Assembly: GCA_963834375.1 (NCBI GenBank)
Contig: CAWIBM010000001.1
Location: forward strand, 453,864 to 517,863
DNA length: 64,000 bases
DNA from: an uncultured Acidimicrobiia bacterium
Lineage (GTDB): Bacteria; Actinomycetota; Acidimicrobiia; Spongiisociales; UBA5794
Reading direction: 5' to 3'
This document shows positions 47,246-60,578 of this stretch, one piece after another. Numbering within the stretch: position 1 is the first letter of the stretch; each line of letters opens with the position of its first letter. The notes below the pieces were generated by a model. That model had not been told where the DNA came from. It worked only from the letters and a program-made list of their open reading frames with translations, and ran no database searches. Position numbers and translations under genes: made by a program.

Positions 47246-47345
47246 CTTCTCTGTCCTCAGACGGGGGCGGGAACCCTACCAGCGGCCAGGATCCGTTCGG
47301 CCCGCCATCCCCGAGTCTCCGCCTGACGGCGTAGCCTCTGTACCC

Positions 47346-48195
47346 ATGACTCACGGCCTTCGCGCCAAGACACCGACGGTCCGGGTGGCGGTACGGCGCC
47401 GCACCGCCGAGGGGATCGAATCGGGTCGCGACGACGTCGTCGTCGAGGAGCCGATGGAGATCAGGGTCGGCTGCCGCCGGGGCGCCCGACGACGAGTTGA
47501 CGCCGTTGGCGGTGACCATGCGCACCCCGGGCCACGACTTCGAGCTGGCCACCGGGTTCGTGATCTCGGAGGGTGTCGCCTCGTCACCAGCCGACATCCG
47601 GGCGGTCGCCTACTGCGGGCTCCCCGCCGACCTGCAGGAGTACAACGTGGTCACCGTCAGGCTCGCGCCAGGCCCCCGATCTCGACCGCCACCGGCGCAA
47701 CAGCTACATGACCTCGAGCTGCGGGGTGTGCGGCAAGGCCTCCATCGACGCCGTCGAGGTGGCGTGCCACCGCCGCCCGGTGAGCGAACCGGTATCGCCC
47801 GCCGTGATCGCGGGGCTCACCGAAGGCCTCGGCGAGCGACAGCGGTGGTTCGCCACCACCGGCGGCCTCCACGCCGCCGGCCTGTTCGACCTGTCAGGAA
47901 CGCCCCTCGTGGTGCGGGAGGACGTCGGGCGGCACAACGCCGTCGACAAGGTGATCGGGTGGGCGGCGATGGCCGGCGCCCTCCCCGCCGACCACCGGGT
48001 TCTCGTCGTGTCGGGCCGGGCCAGCTTCGAGATCGTGCAGAAGGCGGCGGTGGCGGGCATCGCCACCGTGGTGGCGGTTTCGGCGCCGTCGTCACTGGCG
48101 ATCGACGCCGCCCGCAAGCTGGGGGTGACGCTGGTCGGCTTCGCCAGGGGCGATCGCTTCACCGCCTACGCCGGGGCGGTCGGCGGCGTCGGTGA
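47346..48195 (+). pseudogene. fdhD: Formate dehydrogenase accessory sulfurtransferase FdhD; 2-3 frame changes, 3' end uncertain
   Basis: ATG at 47346 gives MTHGLRAKTPTVRVAVRRRTAEGIESGRDDVVVEEPMEIRVG. Then [26 protein letters not shown] (ORF 47497..). Then [16 protein letters not shown]...[10 protein letters not shown]...[15 protein letters not shown]...[13 protein letters not shown]...[12 protein letters not shown] (ORF 47573..). As assembled, this last frame runs without a stop into the next gene. Confidence 0.8.
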
Positions 48196-48268
48196 GGTCA
48201 CGGCCACGGTGGAAATCGACCCGGACCGGAGCACTACCGTGAGAGCATCGAACGAGAGGGAGGCGGGC

Positions 48269-49460
48269 ATGATGGCCGAGGTGGTTTTCGACCATGTGCG
48301 AGAAGGCCTACCCGAACGGGTTCAAGGCGGTCACCGACCTCAGCCTGAAGATCGAGGAGGGCGAGTTCCTGGTGATGGTCGGGCCGTCCGGCTGCGGAAA
48401 GTCGACGACCTTGCGCATGATCGCCGGGCTCGAGGAGATCACGGCCGGGGAGCTCTCGCATCGGCGGGCGGGTGGTGAACGACATGCCTCCGAAGGACCG
48501 GGACATCGCCATGGTGTTCCAGAACTACGCCCTGTACCCGCACATGTCGGTGGCGGATAACATCGGGTTCGCCCTGAAGCTGGCGAAGACCCCGAAGGCC
48601 GAGATCAAGAAGAAGGTCGACGCCGCCGCCCGGATGCTGGAGCTCCACGAGATCCTCGACCGCAAGCCGGCGCAGCTCTCCGGCGGCCAGCGACAGCGCG
48701 TGGCCATGGGGCGCGCCATCGTGCGCGAACCCCAGGTGTTCCTGCTCGACGAGCCGTTGTCGAACCTCGACGCCAAGCTGCGGGTGCAGATGCGCGCCCA
48801 GATCACCGATCTGCAGCGGAACGTCGGCGTCACCACGTTCTACGTGACCCACGACCAGGTGGAGGCAATGACGATGGCCGACCGGGTCGCCGTCATCAAC
48901 AACGGTGTGCTCCAGCAGGTCGAACCACCCCAGGTGCTGTTCGACGAGCCGGACAACCTGTTCGTCGCCGCCTTCATCGGTTCCCCGTCGATGAACCTCT
49001 CCGAGGCGACGATCACCGAGGAGAACAGCCATGCCACCATCCGCCTCGGGTCGCAGACGCTGTCGCTCCCCGGCGAGGTGTTCAGCAAGCGACCGGCGCT
49101 GCGCCGCTACATCGGTCGTGACGTCACGGTCGGCATCCGCCCCGAGGACATCGAGGACGCCGTTCCCTGGTCACCGACCATCCGCACGATCAGCGGCTGC
49201 GGTCGAAGGCCACCACGGTCGAGGCGCTCGGCTTCGAGAAGATCGTGTACTTCGACATCGACGCCAAGCCGGTGTTCTCCGCCGATGCCCTCGACATGGA
49301 GGAGGGCGCCGAGGAGGTGATGGCGGCGCAGCACACGCGGATGGCCGCACGGTTCGACGCCAACAGCGGCATGCAGGTGGGTGACGAGGTGGAGGCGGCC
49401 GTCTTCATCGGCAAGGCCCACTTCTTCGACCCGGAGACCGGCCTGGCGATCCGCGACTGA
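48269..49460 (+). pseudogene. Sugar-type ABC transporter ATP-binding protein (MalK/UgpC/MsiK-like), orphan; 3 frame changes
   Basis: A gagggagg SD precedes the ATG at 48269. [10 protein letters not shown] | [49 protein letters not shown] | [27 protein letters not shown]...[15 protein letters not shown]...[14 protein letters not shown] | ...IVYFDIDAK...FFDPETGLAIRD. Shifts near 48295, 48465 and 49165. Confidence 0.85.
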
Positions 49461-49483
49461 GGGCGGCCACCCGGCCTCCGGCT

Positions 49484-51079
49484 TCAGCGGCCGAGGATCA
49501 GCGCCGTCTCTGCCGGGACGGTGACCGTGTCGCCCGGCTCCACCCTGCGGCCGGGCCGGCTCGAGAACATCACGGACCATCTCCCCTCGGGGAGGGCCAG
49601 GTCGGCGTCGTGCTCATCGAGGTTGCAGACGACCACCAACGACCCGCGGCGGACTGCCATCAGGAGCCCGCTGTCCGGGTCGAGCCACTGCGCCGGGGCG
49701 TCGACCAGCTCACGGTGAGTGCGGCGGTGCAGCCCGAGCAGGCTGCGGTAGGCCTCGAGCCACGAACCGGCGACGCCCTGTTGCCCGGCGACGGTGTCCT
49801 CCAGGGGCCGGGGTGCGGCGGGCAGCCAGACGGCGGCGGCGCCGCTGAACCCGTTGTTGGCGGAGCCGTCCCACGCCATCGGGGTGCGGGCGCCGTCCCG
49901 GCCGCTGGTGGCGCCCGGGTTGCGCGTGGAGATCGGGTCGGCCAACGCCCCGGCCGCCACGATCCCGTTCTCGCCGGCCAGCTCCTGGCCCTGGTAGAGG
50001 AAGGGCATGCCGCCCAGGCCCATGAGCAGCGTCGTCATCGCCAACGCCCTCCGCCGCCCCGTCTCGCCGCCGCCGTAACGGGTGGCGGCACGGTGGCCGT
50101 CGTGGTTCTCGATGGTCCAGGCAACGGACTCCGGGGAGGCGAGGTGGACGCCGCGCAGGGCGTCGCGGAAGCCGCAGCGGCTCCCACCCCATCGACACCG
50201 GGTCGAGGAAGAACGTGTAGTGCAGCGCCCGCCCTCCGTCGTGGTACCGGGCGAGCCGCACCGGGTCGGACACCGGGGTCTCACCGAGGAGGATCGCCCC
50301 GTACGGATCGACCACCCGCCGCCACCTCCGGAAGATGGCCACGGTCGGGTTCTGGTCGAAGTCGTAGCGGTGCTCGAAGGAGGCGTGGGCGGCGACCGGG
50401 ATCCATACCCGGCTCGAGCGGGGCCAGCTGCGGGTTGTCGCGATACCACGGGTCCTTCACGAGGGCGGCGGCGACGTCGATCCGGAACCCGTCGACGCCC
50501 CGCTCGCACCAGAACCGGAGGATGGCGTCGAACTCGTCGGCGACGGCCGGGTTGGCCCAGTTGAGGTCGGGCTGCTCCGGCAGGAACATGTGCAGGTAGT
50601 ACTGGCCGGAGGCCTCGTCGAGGGTCCACGCCGGGCCCCCGAAGTACTGGATCCAGTTGTTGGGTGGTCCCCCGTCCTTTCCCGGATCGAGCCAGTGGTA
50701 GTAGTCGCGGTAGCGGGCCGGTCGGGTCGGACACCGCCGCCCGGAACCACGGGTGGGCCGACGAGCTGTGGTTGGGGACGATGTCGATCATCACCCGCAG
50801 GCCGAGTCGGTGCGCCTCGGCCACCAGGTCGTCGAAGTCGGCCAGCGTGCCGTGGATCGGGTCGACGTCGCAGTAGTCGGCGACGTCGTAGCCGTGGTCG
50901 AAGCCGGGCGACGGGTAGAACGGGGTGATCCACACCAGGTCGATGCCGAGGTCGACGAGATGCCGGAGGCGGGAGCGGATCCCGGCCAGGTCACCGATCC
51001 CGTCGCCGTTGGCGTCGGCGAAGGACCGCACGTAGACCTGGTAGCCGACCGCACCTCGCCACCAGGGGGTGTCCGCCAT
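49484..51079 (-). pseudogene. GH13 alpha-glucosidase / oligo-1,6-glucosidase-like enzyme; at least 4 frame changes
   Basis: ATG at 51079 gives MADTPWWRGAVGYQVYVRSFADANGDGIGDLAGI...DLVWITPFYPSPGFDHGYDVADY...RVMIDIVPNHSS. The middle is readable only in other frames (YYLHMFLPEQPDLNWANPAVADEF...GVDGFRIDVAAAL; RRVVDPYGAILLGET). The intact tail reads WTIENHDGHRAATRYGG...PFLYQGQELAGEN. Confidence 0.8.
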
Positions 51080-51208
51080 CACACCGCCTTGCGGTAGTGG
51101 CGGACCCGAGCGAGGTCCTCGGTCTCGATGATCGTGGTCGTGATCGGCCTCCGGGCGGGCCCGGCGCAGGCTAGGGCGGCGGGATCGGGGCCGGCGACGG
51201 GTCACCGG

Positions 51209-51540: not shown

Positions 51541-51816
51541 ATGGCGGGCACCCAACAGGTGGATTCCCAGTCGCTGCGCGACACCGGAGGCGCCTTCGCC
51601 GCCGCCTCGGGCGATGTCGAGGCGCTGATCGCCACCGTGGCCGCATCGGTCGGGGCGCTGGTGTGGACCGGTGGCATCGCCGAGCAGTTCCGGGACGACT
51701 TCACCGGGCGCTACAAGCCGATGCTCGAGCAACTCGGGGCGGACATGGACGCCACCAGCAAGGCGATGTTCGAGAAGGCCGACCAGTACGACGTCGTGTT
51801 CCACGGCTCGGCCTGA
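51541..51816 (+). CDS. WXG100-family (ESAT-6-like) type VII secretion substrate
   Basis: 91 aa from the ATG at 51541, with a good SD. Helical-hairpin size, with a central W-x-G turn: ...VAASVGALVWTGGIAEQFRDDF.... Sits directly upstream of an FtsK/SpoIIIE ATPase. Confidence 0.75.
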   Translation: MAGTQQVDSQSLRDTGGAFAAASGDVEALIATVAASVGALVWTGGIAEQFRDDFTGRYKPMLEQLGADMDATSKAMFEKADQYDVVFHGSA

Positions 51817-51838: not shown

Positions 51839-52180
51839 ATGAGCAGCGCAGAGGACAAGGAGGCGACCGCCGCCGGGCTGCGGCGGTGTGCCGCCGACCT
51901 CGAAGCCGTCTTCGACGGTCTGGTCACCCGGTCGATGTCGGCGTGGAGCTGCCCCGCCGCCACCGCGTTCGAGACGGACCTTCGGGACCACATCACCGCG
52001 CTCCAGACGGTCGCCGCCGATCTCCGGGCGAACGCCACCCGGCTCGAGGCGGCGGCCGACGCCCAGCGGGCCGCCGCCGAGGAGGCGATCGTCGGGGTCG
52101 ACCCGGGGGAGCCCGCGCCGATCGACGGCTGGTCCCCTTCACCGGGACCGACGCCGGCGCCGGTGGGCGGCCCCGTCTGA
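51839..52180 (+). CDS. WXG100-like partner protein (degenerate turn, Pro-rich tail)
   Basis: 113 aa from the ATG at 51839. Predicted helix-turn-helix size with W at the turn (TRSMSAWSCPAATAFETDL). C-terminal tail GVDPGEPAPIDGWSPSPGPTPAPVGGPV. Lies 22 nt after the first WXG100 gene and 18 nt before the ATPase. Confidence 0.5.
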   Translation: MSSAEDKEATAAGLRRCAADLEAVFDGLVTRSMSAWSCPAATAFETDLRDHITALQTVAADLRANATRLEAAADAQRAAAEEAIVGVDPGEPAPIDGWSPSPGPTPAPVGGPV

Positions 52181-52198: not shown

Positions 52199-55100
52199 AT
52201 GGTCCCCGTGGTCGTCGTCACCGACGAAGGACCGTTGGATTGCGAGATCGACGCCGACGACGACGCCACCGTCGGCGCCCTGCTCACCGCCCTCGGCCTG
52301 ACCGGCCCGATCTTCGTGGACGGGAGGCCGCTGGCTCCCGAGCTGACCCTCGCCGACGTCCTGACGGCCGGAGCCGTGCTCGCCACCGGCGCCGCCACGC
52401 CCGGGGATCAGCCGTCGCCGGGCCCGGGCGACGCCGAGCGCGAAGAGCACGACCGCTTCCGACTGGTGATCCTCGCCGGGAGGGGAGCAGGCATGGCGGT
52501 CGGGCTGGCCGAGGGTCGCCAGGTGGTCGGCTCCGGGGCGGGGTCAACGGTCACGCTGCGGGCCGGCGGCGTCGCCGATCGTCACGCCGTCCTCGATGTG
52601 ACCTCTGCCTCGGTCCACCTGGTGTCCAGGCGCGGGGCCAGGGCGCTCGACGGGGACACCGTGCTCGCCATCGGGGAGACCCTGGCCTGTGTCGTGCCGG
52701 TCCCCGACGCCACCCGCTCGCCGGTCCCGGGCTGCGGGCCGGCCATCGTGCACAATCGTCGGCGTCGACCGGCCCCGCCCGCTCCCTTACCGAGGGTGGT
52801 GCTCCCCGACCCTCCACCCGCCGAGCCCGCACCACGCCCGATGGGATGGGCGGCCTTGGCGATACCGGTGATCTTCGGCCTGGTGATGGCGGTCCTGGTC
52901 GACCCGAGGATGGCGCTGTTCGCACTGCTCGGCCCACTCGTCATGGCCGGGGGCCGGGTCGACGATCTCCGGCTGCGGCGCCGGGCCCGCCGCACCGCCA
53001 CCGCCACGAGTGCTTCCGCCGCCGCCACCCTCGCCGCCACCCTCGACCGGCGCCGCGCCGGAGAGCTCCGTCGCCGCCGCGCCGACCAACCCGGTGTGGC
53101 GGTTCTCGCCTGGTGGGTGGAACGCCGGTCGCCGCGGGTGTGGGAGCGGCGTCGCGGCGACGCCGACTTCCTCAGGCTCACCATCGGCTACGGGGACCTG
53201 CCGTGGTCCCCCGATCTCGCCGGCGATCCGGACAACGCGGCGGCCCCGTGGCCGCCGTCCTCGCCGGCCACCTCATGCCGGCCACTCCGCTCACCCTCGA
53301 CCTGGGCGGGCGGGTGCTCGGGCTCGTCGGTGACCGGGTCAACGCCCTCGAGCTGGGGCGCGGGCTGCTGTGCTCGGCCGCCGTGCTGCACGGCCCCTCC
53401 GACCTGGCGGTGGCGGTGGTGACCGACCGGCCCGCCGACTGGGACTGGGTGAAGTGGTTGCCGCACGTCATGGTGGCGCCGACCGACCGGCGCCGCCTGC
53501 TCGCCGGCGACGCCATCGAGACGGTGGCGGTGCTCGACTGGATCGCCACTCGCCCTGGCGCCGGACAGCAAAGGCCGGTCGTGCTGGTCGTGGTCGACCG
53601 CGGCCCGCTGACCGATCCTCTCGGGCCTGGCGGTGCGTCGGGTGCTCGGCGGCGCCACGGGCGACGTGGCCGGCATCGTCCTGGCGGACGGGGAGGACGA
53701 TCTCCCCGCCGAGTGCACCGACCTGGTCGACTGCGGGCACCGCCGCGCCCGGCTCGAGCACCGGGGAGGGATCGATGGAGCTCGCCCCCGCCGGGGCGGT
53801 GGCCTCGGTCGCCGTCACCCTGGCCAGGGGCCTCGCCAGGTACCGCGATCCCGACCAGGTCGATCCCGGTGCCGGGCTGCCCCGGGCGGTCAGGCTGCTC
53901 GAGGCCGCCGGCTCGGCCGGCCCGTCCTCCGAGGAGCTGATCGGGCGCTGGTCGGACGGGGGCGCGGGCCTCGATGCGGTGCTGGGGGTGACCGCCACCG
54001 GACCGATGCGCATCGACCTCGCCGCCGCCGGGCCCCACGCCCTGGTCGCCGGGACCACCGGGTCGGGCAAGAGCGAGCTGCTGCGCACGCTGGTCGCCTC
54101 GCTGGCCCTGGCCCACGACCCGGAGCACGTCAACTTCGTCCTCGTCGACTACAAGGGCGGGAGTGCCTTCGACGCCGCCGTGCGCCTGCCCCACACGGTC
54201 GGCCTGGTCACCGACCTCGACGGCGGCCTGGCCGATCGGGCGCTGCGGTGCCTCGAAGCCGAGCTCCGCCACCGGGAGCGGGAACTGCGCACCCTCGGTG
54301 CACCCGACATCGAACGCTTCCGAACCCTCGGAGGACGGCTGCCGAGGATGTTGATCGTGGTCGACGAGCTGGCCGCCCTGGCCCGCGAGCTACCCCGATT
54401 CGTCGGTTCCCTGGTCGACATCGCAGCCAGGGGACGCAGCCTCGGCATCCACCTCGTGCTCGCCACCCAGCGGCCGGCCGGGGTGGTGAGCGATGCCATC
54501 CGGGCCAACACCGACATCCGCGTCGCCCTCAGGGTCACCGACCGCGCCGACTCCACCGACGTGCTGGGTGACCCGGCGGCGGCAGCGATCGGCCGCGACC
54601 TGCCCGGCCGCGGGCTGGTCCGCCTCGGCCCCGGCGACCTGGTCCCCTTCCAGGCGGCGACGGTATCCGCCGGTCCGGCCACCGCCGGCACGGTGACCGT
54701 CCGGCCCTTCCGGTTCGGCCACGATCCGGGGGATGGGCCGCATCCCGTCCGGTCCGCTGCCGAAAGGCCCGAGCCGACCGACCTGGAACGGCTGAGCGCG
54801 GCGGCGGTCGAGGCGGCGGCCCGGCTCCGCCTACCGTCCCCGCGCCGGCCGTGGCCGGAGCCGCTCCCCGGTCGCCTCAGCACCGACGACCTGTCGCCGG
54901 CGGTATCCGGTGACGGTGTTCCGGTGGGCCTGGCCGACGAGCCGGATCGGCAGCGCACCGTCCCGTTCACGTGGTCGCCGGCGGAGGGCAACCTCGGGCT
55001 GTACGGCGCGCCGGGGTCCGGCCTCACCACCGCCCTGGAGACGGTGGTCCTCGGACTGGTCGCCGGCCACGCCACCGATCCGGTCGACATCTACGTCGTG

Positions 55101-56305
55101 GACGCCCCCGGCGACCTGGGCCGGCTCTCCCGGCTGGCGGCGGTGGGAGCCGTGGTGTCACCCGGCGAGGTCGACCGGATGGCCCGCCTGGTCAGGATGC
55201 TGCTGGCCGGGATCGACCGAGCGGCGCGCCCCAGGTGGTCGCCGGCACACCGACACGGTGACGGTGCTGGTGGTGGACGGCCTCGAGGCGGTGTTGCGCT
55301 CCCTCGACACCGCCGACTCCGCGGCGGCACGCGACGGGCTCCTGCGGGTGATCGCCGAGGGCGTCGGCGGGGGATCTGGTCACGGTGTTCGCCACCTCCC
55401 GGCCCGGGGGCCTGCCTGCCCTGGTGGAGGCGGCGGTGGCCCACCGGCTCGTGCTCCGCCAATCGGACCCGCTCGGGGCGGCGGTGCTCGGGGTGCGCGG
55501 CGTCGACGACCTCGTCCCCGGTCGGGCGATCCACGCCGGCACCAACCGACACGTCCAGATCGCCGTGCCCGGCGCCGGGCTGGCCCACGCCGCCGAGACG
55601 ATCGAAGTCGGTGCCCGGGCACCGGCCGCGGTGGGTGTCCTCCCCGAAGACGTGGGCTCGGTGGAGGTCGAACACCTGGTCGACGTGAAGACGGATCGCT
55701 GGGCGCTCCCCGTCGGCATCGGCGACGCATCCTTGTCCCCGGTTGGCGTGTCGCTTCATCCCGGTGACCACGTCCTCGTCGTTGGCGGGCCCGGAACCGG
55801 AAAGACCAGTCTCCTCGCCGCTTTCGCCGGGGTCGTCCACCGCCGGGAGACGCCAGGTGACGCGAGCAGGGTGCGGGTGCTGGCCACCGGCGATGCCCTC
55901 GCCGGGCTGGTGCCCGAGGACGTCGAGCCGGTCGCCGGCGCCGACCTCGCCGACCTGGTCGCCGAGCTCACCGCCTCAGACGAAGCAGCGCTCCTGCTCG
56001 TCGACGACGCCGATGCCACCGCGCCGCCGGGCCTCGGCGAGGTCATCGAGGCGCTGCTGGCAGCCCGCCGGCCGCGCCTGCACCTCGTGGTGACGGCCCG
56101 CCCCGCGGTCAAGGCGCTCCACGGTCATTGGGCCAGGGGGCTCACCGCATCCCGGACCGGGATCTGGCTCGGCCCGTCAGTCGGTGTCGACGCCGACCTG
56201 TGGCACACGCCGATGCCGAGGCGGTTCCCCGCCCGCCTCCCGCCGGGTCGTGGGTTGCTCGTCGCCAACGGTGGCAGCGAGCTCGTCCAGGTGATGCGGC
56301 TGTGA
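52199..56305 (+). pseudogene. EccC/EssC-like FtsK/SpoIIIE type VII secretion ATPase (about 1,370 aa) with N-terminal beta-grasp-like and FHA-like segments; 5 frame changes as assembled
   Basis: Frame path: 52199-~53245, ~53245-~53620, ~53620-~53770, ~53770-~55215, ~55215-~55375, ~55375-56305. Two TM helices: MGWAALAIPVIFGLVMAVLV and ALFALLGPLVMAGG. Four P-loop-like modules: GLVGDRVNALE (degenerate), GTTGSGKSELL + LIVVDELAAL + HLVLATQRP, GAPGSGLTTAL + VLVVDGLEAV, and GGPGTGKTSLL + LLLVDDADA. Confidence 0.8.
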
Positions 56306-57045: not shown

Positions 57046-57206
57046 AGTGACTCAGGCGCGGCAGTGTGCTTGGCTGGAGGCCGCGGCGGCGGGCGGTGGC
57101 CCGCCAACCTGAGCCGATCGACCGATCGTCCTCGAACCCGGCGACGGTTACGCTGCGACGGGCGCCAAGGCGCATATTCCGGTACGCCGGAGGGGGGCAG
57201 AGACAA

Positions 57207-60200
57207 GTGAAGTTCCGAATCGCCGCGGGGATCGTCCTCGCCGGCATCCTGCTCGTCGGGGCGTACCTGGGTGGTGTCGTCCTCGAAGGCTCGGCCGGCG
57301 GGGGTTGGTCCCACCAGGCGGGCGAGGGGTTCGACGCCGAGCGCGTCATGGTGCGCACGTTCGAGCTGGGCGTACCCAACCTCCTCCTGCTCGTCGACCC
57401 GGTCACCGGCGAGCTCGACGATCCTGAAGTGGCCGCAGCCGTCGCCGCCATGTCCGAGGATCTCGCCTCGTACACGGGCATCACCCAGCTCGAGTCGTAC
57501 TGGAGCCTCGGCGGGCCGGAAACGTATGCCAGCGATGACGGGAGCCTCGGGCTGGTCACCGCCAGGATCGGCGGGTCGGAGGGCGGGCTGGCCGGCCGTG
57601 CCGACACGGTGTTGTCCAGCATCGACTACGACGACTCGGTCATCGACGTGAGCGCCGGCGGCTCAGCAGTGGTGCAGCGGGATGCGCGCGAGGAGACGCT
57701 GGGCTCGGTGATCCCGCTGGGCGTCGCCTTCCTGCTCGCCATCGGGCTGGTCCTGCTGTTCCTGCGTAACGTGCTCGCCACCGGCTTCGTCGCGCTGACG
57801 TCGGCGGTGGCCGTCTCCATCTCGCTCATAGCACTGTGGGGGCTGGAGCGGCTGGTCACCGTCACCACGACGGCGGTGCTGATCGCAGTGGCGATGGCGT
57901 GGGGCTGCGCCACCGCCGGAGGATTCGTGTTCGGCCATCGGTTCGTCGCCGAACGGCGTGCCGGCGCCGGCCGCCCCGCCGCCGTGGTCGCCACCGTGGG
58001 CACTGCCGGGCGCACGGTGGCGATCGCCAGTGCCGTGGTCGCCGCCGTGGTCTTCACCCTGTGGCTGATGCCGACGGCGATCATGAGGTCGACGGCCTAC
58101 GCCTCCACGATCGCCGTGCTGGCGGCCGGCCTGGCCAGCGTGCTCGTGCTCGGCTTCCTGCTCTCGCTGTTCGGGGCGGGCATGGCCACCGGCGACGGAT
58201 TGCGCCAGCCCGCCGCCCGACCCGGCCTCGGCGATCGGGTGACTGCCATCGCCTCCAGATGGCCCGTCGTCACCGTTGGCTTGGCGATCCTCGTCTTCGG
58301 GGGTGTGTCGCTCGTCGCCCTCGTCGGCCTCAATACCGGCGAGACCACCGCCGAGTCGCTCCCGACCTCGGCGGCGAGTCGACAAGTGGCGGGGACGTTC
58401 GCCGAAGAGTTCGCCGTCGACGAGGTCGATGGCCCCTTCGTCATCGGTCCCAACATCGAGTTCGGTGATGCCCCCGCCCAGCTGGCGGAGTACACGTCGA
58501 GCCTCTCGTCGATCGGCGACGTGGCCAGGACAGACTCGGCTCAGGGCAGCTACGCCGCCGGCGTCGCCGTCGACACCCCGGAGCCGCTCACCGCACGCCT
58601 CGCCAGCGACCGGGCCAACCTCGTCAGGGCCCCGCTCTCGGTGCCGGCCGACTCGACAGAGGCGCAGGCCACTCTCGAGGAGATGGCGGAGGTGGCAGCG
58701 CCCTTCCGCGCCGACATCGGCGGGACCACGGTCCGCCACATGGCCACGGCCGCAGCCGTGGATGCCAGGGCGCCGTTCCTCGTTGCGGGTGCCGTGCTCG
58801 CCATCCTGCTGCTCGTCGCCTGGTTGCTCCATGGATGGCGGATGTCGCTTCGCCTCGCCGTTGCCGCCGTGCTGTCCGCATCGGGGTCGGTGCTGGTGGT
58901 GCGCCTGGGGTTCGTCGACGGCCTGCTCACCGATTTGCTCGGCTCCTCCCAGGTGGGCACGCTCGACGCCTTCGCCGCCCCGATGGCGTGGACGGTCGGG
59001 CTGGCGCTCGTCGCCGGCTGGTTGGTCCTCGGCTGGGGCTCGGCGCGCGAGGCGTTCGATGTCAGCGGTGGCTCCTCTGGTGCGGTGATCCGGTCACTCT
59101 CAGCCACCCGGCGCACCCACCTCGCCACCGGGGTGTTGCTCTGGCTGCCGTTCCTGGCACTGGCGGTCAACGGCTGGCGTACCCAGCAGATGATCGCCAC
59201 CGCAGTCCTCGGCGCCGGGCTCCTCGCGGTCACGGTGGGCAGCTTCGTTGTCGTCCCGGCGCTGTTCGCCCTCGCCCCCGGGCGGATGTGGCCACGCCGG
59301 GTCGACGGCAGTGTTGACACGGTCTACCCCGAGACGGCAGCAGCGGCCTGGCTCGTCGGGGCGGTGCCGCAGGTGATCCCGTCGGACGCACCGTTGCCGG
59401 CGACGGCTCCCGAACGAGCCACGGCGTCGCCTGCGCCGGTCGAGCCGACGGTCGATGTCGCAACACCGGTCGCCGTCGCAGCCGTCGTCGATACCGAGGT
59501 CGCCAATCCTGCCGAGCCCGAGGCCGATGCATCGTCCGATGACGTCTCGGTGCGGCGCCGCCGGCGGGCTCGCTGGCGGCGGACCTCCGCCACCGGGGCC
59601 ATCGTGACCGCCACCGAGGCTGACCAGGCGATTCCCGATGCGTCAGACCTCGATGCTGTCCCCGGCGATGTCCCCGATGTTGTGCCGGATGATGTCCCAG
59701 ACGATGTGCCGGATGATGTCCCAGATGTTGTGCCCGGTGATGTCCCCGATGATGTGATTGTCGGCGAGGCGGTCGCACCCATGGAGCCGGCGGATGCGGA
59801 TCTCCCGTCTCCCGAAGCCGCAGTCGAGCCGGAGCCCGAGCCCGCCGTCTCGAGCGAGGAGCCGGCCGAACCGGCCGTGGAGCCGGATTCCGAGCTGCCG
59901 GTCGAGGCGGCAGTGGAGCCGGACACCGAGCCGGCCCCCGAGGTGGTGGCCGAAGCCGCCGACGACGAAGTCGAGCCGGTCGAGGCCGTGGAGGATCTGC
60001 CTGAGGGGGCCGAGCCGGTCGCCGAAGCCGTGGTCGACGAAGTCGAGCCGGTCGAGGCCGTGGAGGATCTGCCTGAGGGGGCCGAGCCGGTCGCCGAAGC
60101 CGTGGTCGACGAAGTCGAGCCGGTCGAGGCCGTGGAGGAACTTCTCGAGGAGACCGAGCAGATCGCCGCCGTCGAGGTCGAGGTGCCGGCCAAGGTCACC

Positions 60201-60578
60201 CGTCCCCTCGCCGCCGTCGACGTCATCAGCCTCACCGAGTCGGTGATCGCCTCCATCGAAGCCGACGTACCGTTCACCACCGAGATCGGCTCGGGGTACG
60301 TGGCCAACCCTTCGAACAACCTGTCCCGGGTGATGGAGGCGATCCTGAGGGATGCCTCCCGACGAGGCGGCGACGAGGTCCTCGTCTACGGCCACGCCGC
60401 CGCCGGTCGCTACCGGTGGATGGTGGTCGACTCCGGCCCTCGGGCCGACCACGACCCCGAGAGGGCGAGGACGCTGGCGGAGGCCCAGCGCTTCATCCGC
60501 CGGGTCGGCGGCGTCGTGGAGTGCCGGCCCGAAGGCGACTTCACCGTCTTCGTGGTCGAGATCCCTATGGCGAGCTGA
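57207..60578 (+). CDS. MMPL/RND-superfamily transporter fused, via a long acidic repeat linker, to a C-terminal degenerate histidine-kinase-like ATPase (HATPase_c-like) domain
   Basis: GTG at 57207 follows a ggagggggg SD. 1,123 aa, intact. Topology is TM1, a ~190-aa loop, TM2-6, TM7, a ~180-aa loop, TM8-12 (MMPL pattern). Next come about 260 aa of D/E/P/V repeats. The last ~130 aa read NLSRVMEAILRDASRRGGDEVLVYGH...YRWMVVDSGPRAD...AQRFIRRVGGVVECRPEGDFTVFVVEIP. Confidence 0.7.
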   Translation: MKFRIAAGIVLAGILLVGAYLGGVVLEGSAGGGWSHQAGEGFDAERVMVRTFELGVPNLLLLVDPVTGELDDPEVAAAVAAMSEDLASYTGITQLESYWSLGGPETYASDDGSLGLVTARIGGSEGGLAGRADTVLSSIDYDDSVIDVSAGGSAVVQRDAREETLGSVIPLGVAFLLAIGLVLLFLRNVLATGFVALTSAVAVSISLIALWGLERLVTVTTTAVLIAVAMAWGCATAGGFVFGHRFVAERRAGAGRPAAVVATVGTAGRTVAIASAVVAAVVFTLWLMPTAIMRSTAYASTIAVLAAGLASVLVLGFLLSLFGAGMATGDGLRQPAARPGLGDRVTAIASRWPVVTVGLAILVFGGVSLVALVGLNTGETTAESLPTSAASRQVAGTFAEEFAVDEVDGPFVIGPNIEFGDAPAQLAEYTSSLSSIGDVARTDSAQGSYAAGVAVDTPEPLTARLASDRANLVRAPLSVPADSTEAQATLEEMAEVAAPFRADIGGTTVRHMATAAAVDARAPFLVAGAVLAILLLVAWLLHGWRMSLRLAVAAVLSASGSVLVVRLGFVDGLLTDLLGSSQVGTLDAFAAPMAWTVGLALVAGWLVLGWGSAREAFDVSGGSSGAVIRSLSATRRTHLATGVLLWLPFLALAVNGWRTQQMIATAVLGAGLLAVTVGSFVVVPALFALAPGRMWPRRVDGSVDTVYPETAAAAWLVGAVPQVIPSDAPLPATAPERATASPAPVEPTVDVATPVAVAAVVDTEVANPAEPEADASSDDVSVRRRRRARWRRTSATGAIVTATEADQAIPDASDLDAVPGDVPDVVPDDVPDDVPDDVPDVVPGDVPDDVIVGEAVAPMEPADADLPSPEAAVEPEPEPAVSSEEPAEPAVEPDSELPVEAAVEPDTEPAPEVVAEAADDEVEPVEAVEDLPEGAEPVAEAVVDEVEPVEAVEDLPEGAEPVAEAVVDEVEPVEAVEELLEETEQIAAVEVEVPAKVTRPLAAVDVISLTESVIASIEADVPFTTEIGSGYVANPSNNLSRVMEAILRDASRRGGDEVLVYGHAAAGRYRWMVVDSGPRADHDPERARTLAEAQRFIRRVGGVVECRPEGDFTVFVVEIPMAS
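59655..59755. repeat. 12-bp in-frame microrepeat encoding (D/V)VPD units
   Basis: gatgtccccgatgttgtgccggatgatgtcccagacgatgtgccggatgatgtcccagatgttgtgcccggtgatgtccccgatgatgtg encodes DVPDVVPDDVPDDVPDDVPDVVPGDVPDDV. Confidence 0.9.
59964..60140. repeat. 72-bp perfect tandem repeat (2 full units plus a partial third) inside the MMPL linker
   Basis: The unit gacgaagtcgagccggtcgaggccgtggaggatctgcctgagggggccgagccggtcgccgaagccgtggtc starts at 59964, 60036 and 60108. It encodes DEVEPVEAVEDLPEGAEPVAEAVV. Confidence 0.95.

What the first reader, a model, noticed from the sequence alone, without database searches (positions are those of the whole stretch)
52199..53250. The ATPase N-terminus appears to absorb accessory T7SS domains: a beta-grasp (YukD/EccD-like) segment plus a degenerate FHA-like segment before the TM hairpin
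Residues 1-65 (VVVVTDEGPLDCEIDADDDATVGALLTALGLTGPIFVDGRPLAPELTLADVLTAGAVL) have the pattern I associate with the ubiquitin-like YukD/EsaB and EccD N-terminal domains: a short strand, then 'L..LGL', then 'vdGrpL.p..tLad.gv.dGavL'.

Residues ~85-160 (FRLVILAG..GLAEGRQVVGSGAGSTVTLRAGGVADRHAVLDV...VHLVSRRGARALDGDTV) look like an FHA fold. The canonical phosphothreonine-binding residues are replaced: G-R becomes G-S, S-R-x-H becomes D-R-H, and N-G becomes R-G.

Established: firmicute EssC carries N-terminal FHA domains and actinobacterial EccC does not. YukD/EsaB is normally a separate gene.

A single polypeptide combining beta-grasp, FHA, 2 TM helices and the ATPase array would be an unusual compaction, and it fits the absence of accessory genes in the flanks. 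The domain calls come from pattern reading only.
Basis: inference. Interest (0 to 1): 0.6.

Follow-up and report, generated by a model that had tools for sequence, protein, structure and literature searches.

The report
Secretion ATPase with built-in ubiquitin-like domain
The front end of this type VII-like secretion motor carries a ubiquitin-like domain followed by a worn-down FHA domain. This puts in one protein chain the parts that touch each other in the Bacillus machine, and the layout is common in Actinomycetota but I found no paper that describes it.

Summary
In an uncultured Acidimicrobiia genome, residues 2-63 of the EccC/EssC-type ATPase form a ubiquitin-like beta-grasp domain. The model has pLDDT 84, and all top 50 Foldseek matches are ubiquitin, SUMO or NEDD8 folds, with EccD3 among them. 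Residues 87-167 form an FHA fold (Foldseek TM about 0.7 to OdhI, YscD and GarA). This FHA has lost its phosphothreonine-binding residues and about 14 residues around the NG loop. A two-helix membrane hairpin follows.

The layout is not rare. The ubiquitin-like profile finds 419 protein clusters, mostly N-termini of such ATPases, and 18 of 400 sampled Actinomycetota genomes carry the fusion. Among 80 related loci, 41 ATPases carry the domain in cis and 26 others have an adjacent EccD carrying it instead, with no overlap. On a tree of the ATPase core the two groups separate.

The five frame breaks are most likely assembly errors. The 96%-identical ortholog is intact, and a sister MAG breaks at other sites.

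FHA-bearing actinobacterial ATPases are already published (TsdC, and EsrG-EccC fusions). I found no paper on the fused ubiquitin-like domain. This scan has met the same architecture at least 21 times on other DNA.

The flanks hold only two WXG100-type genes. The genome has no detectable EccB, EccD or YukC.

The parts
51541..51816 (+). WXG100-type gene 1 (91 aa, invariant W-T-G)
   Evidence: NCBIfam WXG100_ESAT6 gives E 2.5e-5, below its cut-off. It is the only Pfam WXG100 hit in the genome, at window 51556-51789. The ortholog profile's best PDB hits are EsxB and EsxA, E 1e-3.
51839..52180 (+). Second small helical gene (113 aa), WXG-like (W-S-C in place of W-x-G)
   Evidence: Weak Pfam PPE hit, E 7.6e-4. 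No NCBIfam hit. The start was chosen at the Met after the overlap with gene 1.
52199..56305 (+). EccC/EssC-type T7SS ATPase gene. In this assembly it is read in three frames because of five single-base length differences.
   Evidence: Frame path. FtsK_SpoIIIE gives E 1.2e-41. The G003 ortholog is intact at 1364 aa and matches EssC, EccCa and EccCb models below their cut-offs.
52202..52387 (+). Ubiquitin-like beta-grasp domain (residues 2-63), with no C-terminal Gly-Gly
52388..52456 (+). Acidic, Pro-rich disordered linker (residues 64-86)
   Evidence: pLDDT is below 50 for residues 65-82. The length varies among relatives.
52457..52699 (+). Degenerate, shortened FHA domain (residues 87-167). 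It has G111-S112 in place of G-R and A126-x-x-H129 in place of S-x-x-H. The NG loop is lost.
   Evidence: The Pfam FHA model does not hit it in the genome search.
52700..52840 (+). Juxtamembrane linker (residues 168-214). It carries the family's conserved F-N-R-P-P-R motif, which here reads H-N-R-R-R-R.
   Evidence: Alignments A1 and A3 show N186, R187 and R190 invariant or nearly so. pLDDT is below 50 for residues 171-189.
52841..52954 (+). Two-helix membrane hairpin (residues 215-234 and 238-252)
   Evidence: Hydropathy scan. The segment is conserved in A2, and it supplied one of the two peptide patterns used to fetch relatives.
53241..55368 (+). Stretch holding the five frame changes, near 53.24, 53.62, 53.76, 55.22 and 55.37 kb
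   Evidence: Comparison with the intact G003 ortholog. The sister MAG G004 has seven frame changes at other positions, one of them beside the window's break near 55.37 kb in a run of G. Neighbouring genes carry many more.
54051..55807 (+). Three P-loop motifs of the ATPase array, at 54051-54074, 55005-55028 and 55784-55807
   Evidence: Motif positions. Pfam FtsK_SpoIIIE and AAA hits.

Best explanation
The stretch encodes the cytoplasmic N-terminal module of the motor ATPase of a compact type VII-like secretion system. The module is a ubiquitin-like beta-grasp domain, a flexible linker, one FHA domain and a juxtamembrane linker. It is followed by the two-helix membrane hairpin and the DUF plus three FtsK-type ATPase domains.

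Shown:
- both folds;
- their conservation as a pair at the N-terminus of hundreds of such ATPases;
- their mutual exclusion with an adjacent EccD that carries the ubiquitin-like domain;
- the loss of the phosphothreonine-binding residues in this lineage.

Inferred:
- The ubiquitin-like domain does in cis what YukD does for YukB in Bacillus, and what the EccD ubiquitin-like domain does for EccC in ESX systems. It would dock on the FHA and DUF region, fix the FHA in place, and so promote assembly of the ATPase oligomer that exports the two adjacent WXG100-type proteins.
- In this Acidimicrobiia lineage the FHA is a constitutive scaffold, as in firmicute EssC, and not a phospho-reader. About half of the relatives keep a canonical, probably kinase-controlled FHA.
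- The frame breaks are assembly errors, not gene decay.
For: Folds:
- Ubiquitin-like domain. FHA.
- Profile matches.
- hhalign of the ATPase ubiquitin-like profile to 27 EccD YukD domains, which were chosen independently by Pfam, gives probability 95.5-96.2%, E 1.5e-8 to 2.2e-9.

Family:
- 419 clusters match at E<=1e-3. Most hits start at residue 1, and at least 90 of the top 150 are ubiquitin-like(+FHA)+TM+ATPase proteins or fragments of them.
- 18 of 400 sampled Actinomycetota genomes carry the domain in open frames of 1086-1746 aa.
- After four HMM rounds, 41 of 80 related loci have the ubiquitin-like domain, and where an FHA is detected it ends 10-15 residues before it.
- 26 loci lack any N-terminal module but have an adjacent EccD with a YukD domain. 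There is no overlap between the two sets.
- On a tree of the ATPase core, the EccD-linked clade (support 96) separates from the ubiquitin-like/FHA clades (support 98-99).

No separate partner:
- No Pfam YukD, EccB or YukC match was found in G000, G003, G001, G006 or G024; G004 was searched for YukD and EccB only.

Mechanistic precedent:
- In the cryo-EM structure, YukD contacts the YukB FHA domains, the DUF and an ATPase-1 hairpin, and is needed to order the FHA domains (PMC12637312).

FHA degeneracy:
- Alignment.
- Of 66 representatives, 35 are canonical, 9 partial and 22 degenerate.
- No Ser/Thr kinase lies in the window.

Assembly errors:
-.
- dN/dS is about 0.23 against close kin, from few substitutions.
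Against: - No direct evidence shows that the ubiquitin-like domain docks on the FHA or DUF. The two-domain model has pTM 0.45, and I could not model the full-length protein or an oligomer.
- The Pfam YukD model gives no hit, even at E<=1, for the N-termini scanned directly.
- In the sequence-profile search the solved EccD1 domain scores only E 0.54, and YukD does not appear.
- The domain is as similar to ThiS-like proteins as to EccD domains. That ThiS set was picked because the profile had hit it, so the comparison is biased upward.
- The WXG100 calls are below curated cut-offs.
- Kin are not independent. About 25 of the 26 EccD-linked loci are Micromonosporaceae.
Confidence: 0.75

Rival explanations
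1. The gene is a decaying pseudogene in this organism, so its N-terminal module has no present function here.
For: Five frame changes fall within 4.1 kb. Reads could not be checked.
Against: - The genome is 74% 'complete' in only 6 contigs.
- Neighbouring transporter and FdhD genes carry 11 further single-base insertions in 3.8 kb.
- The sister MAG G004 has 7 indels, none at the same base though one lies next to a window break in a run of G, while G003 is intact.
- dN/dS is about 0.23.
Confidence: 0.08
2. The FHA still reads phosphothreonine, or another phospho-ligand, and couples secretion to a Ser/Thr kinase, as proposed for TsdC and the EsrG-EccC fusions.
For: - About half of the family keeps the GR, SxxH and NG motifs.
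- The genome has Ser/Thr kinases elsewhere.
- His129 and the fold are kept.
Against: - Arg is replaced by Ser112, Ser by Ala126, and the NG loop is deleted across the Acidimicrobiia subclade.
- The Pfam FHA model fails on it.
- No kinase or phosphatase lies in the flanks.
Confidence: 0.1
3. The beta-grasp domain is a ThiS/MoaD/SAMP-type carrier or modifier rather than a structural YukD analogue.
For: - The best solved-structure sequence hit is SAMP2, E 4e-7.
- hhalign to ThiS-like proteins gives 96.4%.
- The profile also picks up 78-aa ThiS proteins in other genomes.
Against: - The domain is N-terminal and continuous with the rest of the chain.
- It has no Gly-Gly end, whereas the ThiS set ends in GG.
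- It always sits in front of FHA, TM and ATPase.
- It is mutually exclusive with the EccD ubiquitin-like domain.
- The ThiS set was chosen by the profile itself, which inflates that comparison.
Confidence: 0.03
4. The ATPase is a DNA translocase or conjugation motor (FtsK/TraB-like) and not a protein secretion motor.
For: It has FtsK_SpoIIIE domains. Weak TraB and FtsK model hits appear.
Against: - It has three tandem P-loop domains after a TM hairpin.
- EssC, EccCa and EccCb are by far the best models, at 251-360 bits.
- Two WXG100-type genes lie directly upstream, here and in relatives.
- The true FtsK is elsewhere in the genome.
Confidence: 0.04

Closest known systems
T7SSb core unit of Bacillus subtilis: YukB (EssC) with YukD (EsaB) (cryo-EM, PMC12637312)
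   Same: [quoted passage not shown]
- The FHA lacks phosphothreonine-binding residues.
- YukD contacts the FHA and the DUF.
   Different: - Here the ubiquitin-like domain is fused to the ATPase, and there is one FHA instead of two.
- No YukC/EssB, EsaA or EssA was found.
- The ATPase scores 360 bits against the EssC model, whose cut-off is 778.
T7SSa / ESX: EccD N-terminal ubiquitin-like (YukD, PF08817) domain bound to the EccC DUF
   Same: - The phylum is Actinomycetota.
- A ubiquitin-like domain serves the ATPase.
- Profile-profile similarity is 96%.
- The ESX-3 translocon chain taken to be EccD3 is among the Foldseek hits.
   Different: - The domain sits on the ATPase, not on a multi-pass EccD.
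- No EccB, EccD or adjacent EccD gene is present.
- The ATPase core forms a separate clade.
- The Pfam YukD model does not see the domain.
T7SSd TsdC of Olsenella and Bifidobacterium (Garrett, Higginson and Palmer 2024, PMC11217815)
   Same: An actinobacterial, FHA-bearing T7SS ATPase with no separate ubiquitin-like gene and few partners.
   Different: - TsdC (1563 aa) is shown in the paper's Fig. S2 alignment boxed with the firmicute FHA domains. Its first residues, as printed there, do not show the ubiquitin-like pattern.
- TsdC keeps 90-100% of the phosphothreonine motifs and comes with kinase TsdD and giant TsdI. None of these is present here.
EsrG-EccC fusions of Actinomycetales (bioRxiv 2026, PMC13622651)
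   Same: An FHA output domain is translationally fused to the N-terminus of EccC in many actinobacteria.
   Different: - That work links the FHA to a MoxR/vWA/kinase threat-sensing pathway and does not mention a ubiquitin-like domain.
- Here the FHA is degenerate, and no Esr-type genes or kinase lie nearby.

Membership tests
FHA domain (Pfam clan SMAD/FHA; PF00498, PF16697) | Beta-sandwich FHA fold | tested here: met
   The AF2 model has pLDDT 83-92 over residues 87-167. 44 solved FHA domains match at E<=1e-3, with TM (target) about 0.7 and rmsd about 2.2 A.
FHA domain (Pfam clan SMAD/FHA; PF00498, PF16697) | Match to the curated family model above its cut-off | tested here: not met
   PF16697 scores 25.4 bits against a cut-off of 33.2. 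PF00498 does not hit the locus. The profile of the whole family does hit solved FHA domains at 1e-13, and relatives such as L113 pass both models.
FHA domain (Pfam clan SMAD/FHA; PF00498, PF16697) | Phosphothreonine-binding residues G-R, S-x-x-H and N-G | tested here: not met
   The window has G111-S112 and A126-x-x-H129, and the NG loop lies within a ~14-residue deletion.
YukD/EsaB ubiquitin-like family (PF08817) | Ubiquitin-like beta-grasp fold without a C-terminal Gly-Gly | tested here: met
   The model has pLDDT 84.1. All top 50 Foldseek hits are ubiquitin-like folds. The chain runs on into a linker with no GG.
YukD/EsaB ubiquitin-like family (PF08817) | Match to the Pfam YukD model | tested here: not met
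   There is no hit at E<=1 for the window or for 10 homologs. There is none at E<=0.01 in six genomes. In the phylum sample the model's hits lie almost wholly in EccD-size frames (about 420-630 aa) and in none of the 18 fusion ATPases.
YukD/EsaB ubiquitin-like family (PF08817) | Specific profile-profile relation to YukD domains | tested here: inconclusive
   hhalign to 27 EccD YukD domains gives 95.5-96.2%. It gives an equal 96.4% to ThiS-like proteins, though that set is biased. EccD versus ThiS gives only 33%.
YukD/EsaB ubiquitin-like family (PF08817) | Non-covalent binding to the T7SS ATPase (FHA, DUF) | not testable with these tools
EccC/EssC T7SS ATPase | TM hairpin, DUF and three FtsK-type P-loop domains | tested here: met
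   The TM hairpin and three P-loops are located. FtsK_SpoIIIE gives 1.2e-41. The ortholog aligns to EccCa model positions 2-671 of 673.
EccC/EssC T7SS ATPase | Score above the NCBIfam equivalog cut-offs (EssC, EccCa, EccCb) | tested here: not met
   The scores are 360, 322 and 251 bits against cut-offs of 778, 509 and 347.
EccC/EssC T7SS ATPase | Adjacent WXG100 substrate gene(s) | tested here: met
   A 91-aa gene with invariant W-x-G lies directly upstream. All model hits are below their cut-offs.
T7SSa (ESX) | EccB and EccD (with EccE and MycP) alongside EccC | tested here: not met
   No EccB or YukD/EccD match was found in G000 or five relatives, and none lies in the flanks. EccE and MycP were not searched.
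T7SSb (Ess/Yuk) | EssB/YukC pseudokinase and tandem FHA domains on EssC | tested here: not met
   No YukC match was found in five genomes. The protein has a single FHA preceded by a ubiquitin-like domain.
T7SSd (Garrett 2024) | FHA with conserved phosphothreonine motifs, kinase TsdD and Ig-repeat TsdI | tested here: not met
   The motifs are lost. No kinase lies in the window. The downstream large gene is MMPL-type.

The most novel reading that the evidence does not exclude
The ubiquitin-like/FHA/ATPase polypeptide and its two WXG100-type genes are a complete, self-sufficient minimal type VII secretion machine. The ATPase oligomer alone would form the channel in these monoderm Acidimicrobiia. 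The in-cis ubiquitin-like domain would replace the whole EccD or YukD-YukC scaffold, and no further membrane partner would be needed.
Probability: 0.3. Interest if true: 0.75.

Novelty: new variant of a known kind. Interest (0 to 1): 0.5.

Why it matters
A ubiquitin-like protein is treated as a near-universal type VII component. It is known as a separate protein (YukD/EsaB) or as the N-terminus of EccD.

A large actinobacterial lineage in which the domain is fused to the motor itself gives independent evolutionary support for the contact seen by cryo-EM in 2025. That lineage never co-occurs with an adjacent EccD. It also points to a third way of building the core unit.

Such one-chain, partner-poor systems are attractive for structural work. 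They may also explain apparently orphan WXG100/ATPase pairs in environmental Actinomycetota.

The split between canonical and degenerate FHA versions inside one family offers a natural comparison of kinase-gated and constitutive assembly.

Tried and rejected
Steps that led nowhere:
- The search for related loci with the 10-sequence N-terminal alignment A1 failed because no stretch was conserved enough. It worked with A2.
- The search for homologous proteins restricted to residues 1-215 returned only 2 proteins, with no annotation of the N-terminus.
- Alignment A8 held one mistyped reference and was replaced by A9.
- The neighbourhood census of 24 loci found no conserved partner beyond WXG100 genes.

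Readings considered and rejected:
- Pseudogene: rejected.
- Membership of T7SSa, T7SSb or T7SSd: the defining partners or motifs are absent.
- ThiS-type carrier: rejected.
- Fusion as an artefact of a missed stop or frameshift: rejected because the same architecture is intact in complete genomes such as Janibacter sp. GS2.

All full-length work used the intact ortholog.
Full report
**What is there.**
The window lies in an uncultured Acidimicrobiia MAG. Its closest public kin are MFD06229.bin.1.171 and MFD05567.bin.2.61.

On the + strand, 52199-56305 encodes an EccC/EssC-type ATPase that can only be read by changing frame five times. Pfam finds FtsK_SpoIIIE (E 1.2e-41) in the middle piece. In the N-terminus it finds only a sub-threshold match to Yop-YscD_cpl, a member of the FHA clan (residues 91-144, E 1.7e-5, 25.4 bits against a cut-off of 33.2).

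**Are the frame breaks real?**
- The genome scores 74% complete although it is in only six contigs.
- The ortholog in the single-contig relative G003 is an intact 1364-aa gene, 98% identical over the N-terminus.
- Against G003 the window's gene differs by five single-base length changes, near 53.24, 53.62, 53.76, 55.22 and 55.37 kb.
- The adjacent transporter and FdhD genes carry eleven more single-base insertions in 3.8 kb.
- The sister MAG G004 has seven such changes in the same gene. None is at the same base, though one lies next to the window's break near 55.37 kb in a run of G.
- dN/dS of the N-terminal region against both kin is about 0.23, from few substitutions.

I read these as assembly errors. 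Reads could not be consulted. The ATG at 52199 also rests on one such length difference, and the conserved start is the GTG at 52208. Full-length work used the intact ortholog.

**The beta-grasp segment.**
I built a profile (A4) from residues 1-63 and 15 homologs from loci fetched from public genomes.
- Against the sequences of solved structures it hits SAMP2 (E 4e-7) and ISG15 (about 6e-4), with other ubiquitin-like proteins following more weakly.
- A broader 41-sequence profile (A7) hits ubiquitin at 3e-5 to 1e-4.
- AF2 gives the classical beta-beta-alpha-beta-beta-(3-10)-beta topology, with pLDDT 84.1 and pTM 0.66.
- All top 50 Foldseek matches in the PDB are ubiquitin, SUMO, NEDD8 or ISG15-type folds (prob 0.99-1.00, TM 0.53-0.74). 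The ESX-3 translocon chain 6umm_B, taken to be EccD3, ranks 19.
- Profile-profile comparison with 27 EccD YukD domains, which Pfam picked independently, gives 95.5% (E 1.5e-8) for A4 and 96.2% (E 2.2e-9) for A7.

Against a specific YukD assignment:
- The Pfam YukD model never detects the domain.
- hhalign to ThiS-like proteins is equally strong, at 96.4%. That set had been chosen because the profile hit it, so the comparison is biased. EccD versus ThiS gives only 33%.

So the fold is certain. The YukD label is justified by context and remote homology, not by family-model membership. The domain has no Gly-Gly end and runs straight into a linker.

**The FHA segment.**
In the alignment A3, relatives outside Acidimicrobiia carry textbook G-R, S-R-x-H and N-G-T motifs. 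These include a Solirubrobacteraceae MAG, Janibacter sp. GS2 and an Actinomycetes MAG. The window and its Acidimicrobiia kin have G-S or G-A, lack the Ser, and lack the NG loop. In the window's genus that loop falls inside a ~14-residue deletion.
- The family profile hits solved FHA domains: CT664 at 1.3e-13, FhaA at 6e-13, OdhI/GarA at 1e-11 and YscD at 8e-11.
- The window's own model (pLDDT 83-92 over residues 87-167) matches 44 FHA structures at E<=1e-3, with TM (target) about 0.7.
- Precisely, the window has G111-S112 and A126-D127-R128-H129.
- Among 66 family representatives long enough to judge, 35 are fully canonical, 9 keep GR and SxxH, and 22 are degenerate.
- The window holds no Ser/Thr kinase, and the Pfam FHA model does not see this domain.

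**How common is the layout?**
- The ubiquitin-like profile finds 419 clusters (50% identity) at E<=1e-3 among 1.84 billion representatives. Most hits begin at residue 1. At least 90 of the best 150 are ubiquitin-like(+FHA)+TM+ATPase proteins or fragments of them.
- In an even sample of 400 Actinomycetota genomes, 18 carry the domain at the head of an open frame of 1086-1746 aa. Two further hits are EccD proteins (PF08817 plus PF19053), and the one small frame I scanned is ThiS-like.
- Carriers named by their records include Janibacter and Aeromicrobium with confident matches, Rhizocola, Agromyces and Microbacterium after profile iteration, plus Solirubrobacteraceae, Dormiibacterota and many MAGs.

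**Complementarity with EccD.**
Of 80 loci related through the TM and DUF region:
- 41 have the ubiquitin-like domain after four HMM rounds, and where an FHA is detected it ends 10-15 residues before it.
- 26 have no N-terminal module but have an adjacent EccD with a YukD domain. These are Micromonosporaceae and a few Chloroflexota.
- The two sets do not overlap.

A FastTree of the ATPase core puts the EccD-linked ATPases in one clade (support 96) and the ubiquitin-like/FHA ATPases in others (support 98-99). Caveats: the kin are not independent, the tree is quick and midpoint-rooted, and several branches are long.

**Context.**
- Directly upstream lie a 91-aa WXG100-type gene (51541-51816, invariant W-T-G) and a 113-aa helical gene (51839-52180). 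All model hits for these are below their cut-offs.
- Downstream are a nitroreductase, an MMPL-type gene and a luciferase-like gene. Upstream are divergent ABC transporter genes.
- No EccB or YukD/EccD match occurs in G000 or the five relatives searched, and no YukC match in G000 or four of them.
- A census of 24 related loci found no conserved partner beyond WXG100 genes.

**Mechanism.**
Cryo-EM of the B. subtilis core unit shows YukD contacting the FHA domains, the DUF and an ATPase-1 hairpin of YukB. Without YukD the FHA domains are disordered and YukC is recruited poorly. In ESX systems the EccD ubiquitin-like domain binds the same DUF region (PMC12637312).

The fusion found here puts those interacting parts on one chain. 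I therefore infer that the ubiquitin-like domain acts in cis as the assembly scaffold, and that in this lineage the FHA is structural. Relatives with a canonical FHA are probably kinase-gated, as proposed for TsdC (PMC11217815) and for EsrG-EccC fusions (PMC13622651). The docking itself is not shown.

**Novelty.**
FHA-bearing actinobacterial T7SS ATPases are published. A ubiquitin-like domain fused to the ATPase was not found in any paper I could search. The 2026 preprint does not contain the word ubiquitin. Garrett et al. report T7SSd as lacking any ubiquitin-like protein, and the N-terminus of its TsdC as printed does not resemble this domain.

This scan has recorded the same architecture at least 21 times on other DNA. 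This window adds an Acidimicrobiia member with a degenerate, shortened FHA.

Noticed in passing
window 47300-51110: Against the 96-98% identical G003 sequence, this stretch has 11 single-base differences, nearly all extra bases in the window, inside transporter and FdhD genes. The one-sided error type fits an unpolished long-read assembly.
   Followed up: partly
window 57066-60578: A large MMPL-type gene lies downstream on the same strand, separated from the ATPase by a nitroreductase gene. ORFs of similar size sit downstream on the same strand in G003 and G001 (1139 aa each), but only the G003 copy was scanned with Pfam. A 940-aa ORF lies there in G006. Wider relatives were not examined, because their fetched flanks reach only about 3 kb past the ATPase.
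   Followed up: partly
L036:1832-2566 (-) and L036:2612-3700 (-): In a Solirubrobacteraceae relative with a canonical FHA on the ATPase, a separate FHA protein and a weak NlpC/P60-like hydrolase lie upstream. The hydrolase recalls the EssH cell-wall hydrolase of T7SSb.
   Followed up: no
L071:2512-3753 (-), L047:4455-5684 (-), L052:656-1483 (-): A gene cluster shared by three relatives lies next to the ubiquitin-like/FHA ATPase. Its L071 member is a T2SSE/CpaF-type ATPase by Pfam. This echoes the Tad-pilus neighbours reported for T7SSg and T7SSh.
   Followed up: no
L115:2915-6199 (+) and G183, G325 (genus g41): Proteins of 1086-1124 aa begin with the ubiquitin-like domain, but the one scanned (L115) shows only a faint FtsK_SpoIIIE match (E 7e-4). 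They may be a shortened or degenerate offshoot of the family.
   Followed up: no
P0004 (1338 aa), P0012, P0030, P0034: Some top hits of the ubiquitin-like profile match in 6-23 separate stretches along long proteins and are not ATPases. They may be tandem ubiquitin-like repeats or a compositional artefact.
   Followed up: no
window 52748-52771 and alignments A1, A3: A juxtamembrane motif F-N-R-P-P-R is nearly invariant across the family, between the FHA and the first TM helix. In the window's genus it reads H-N-R-R-R-R. In YukB the equivalent linker takes part in YukC binding and oligomerisation.
   Followed up: partly
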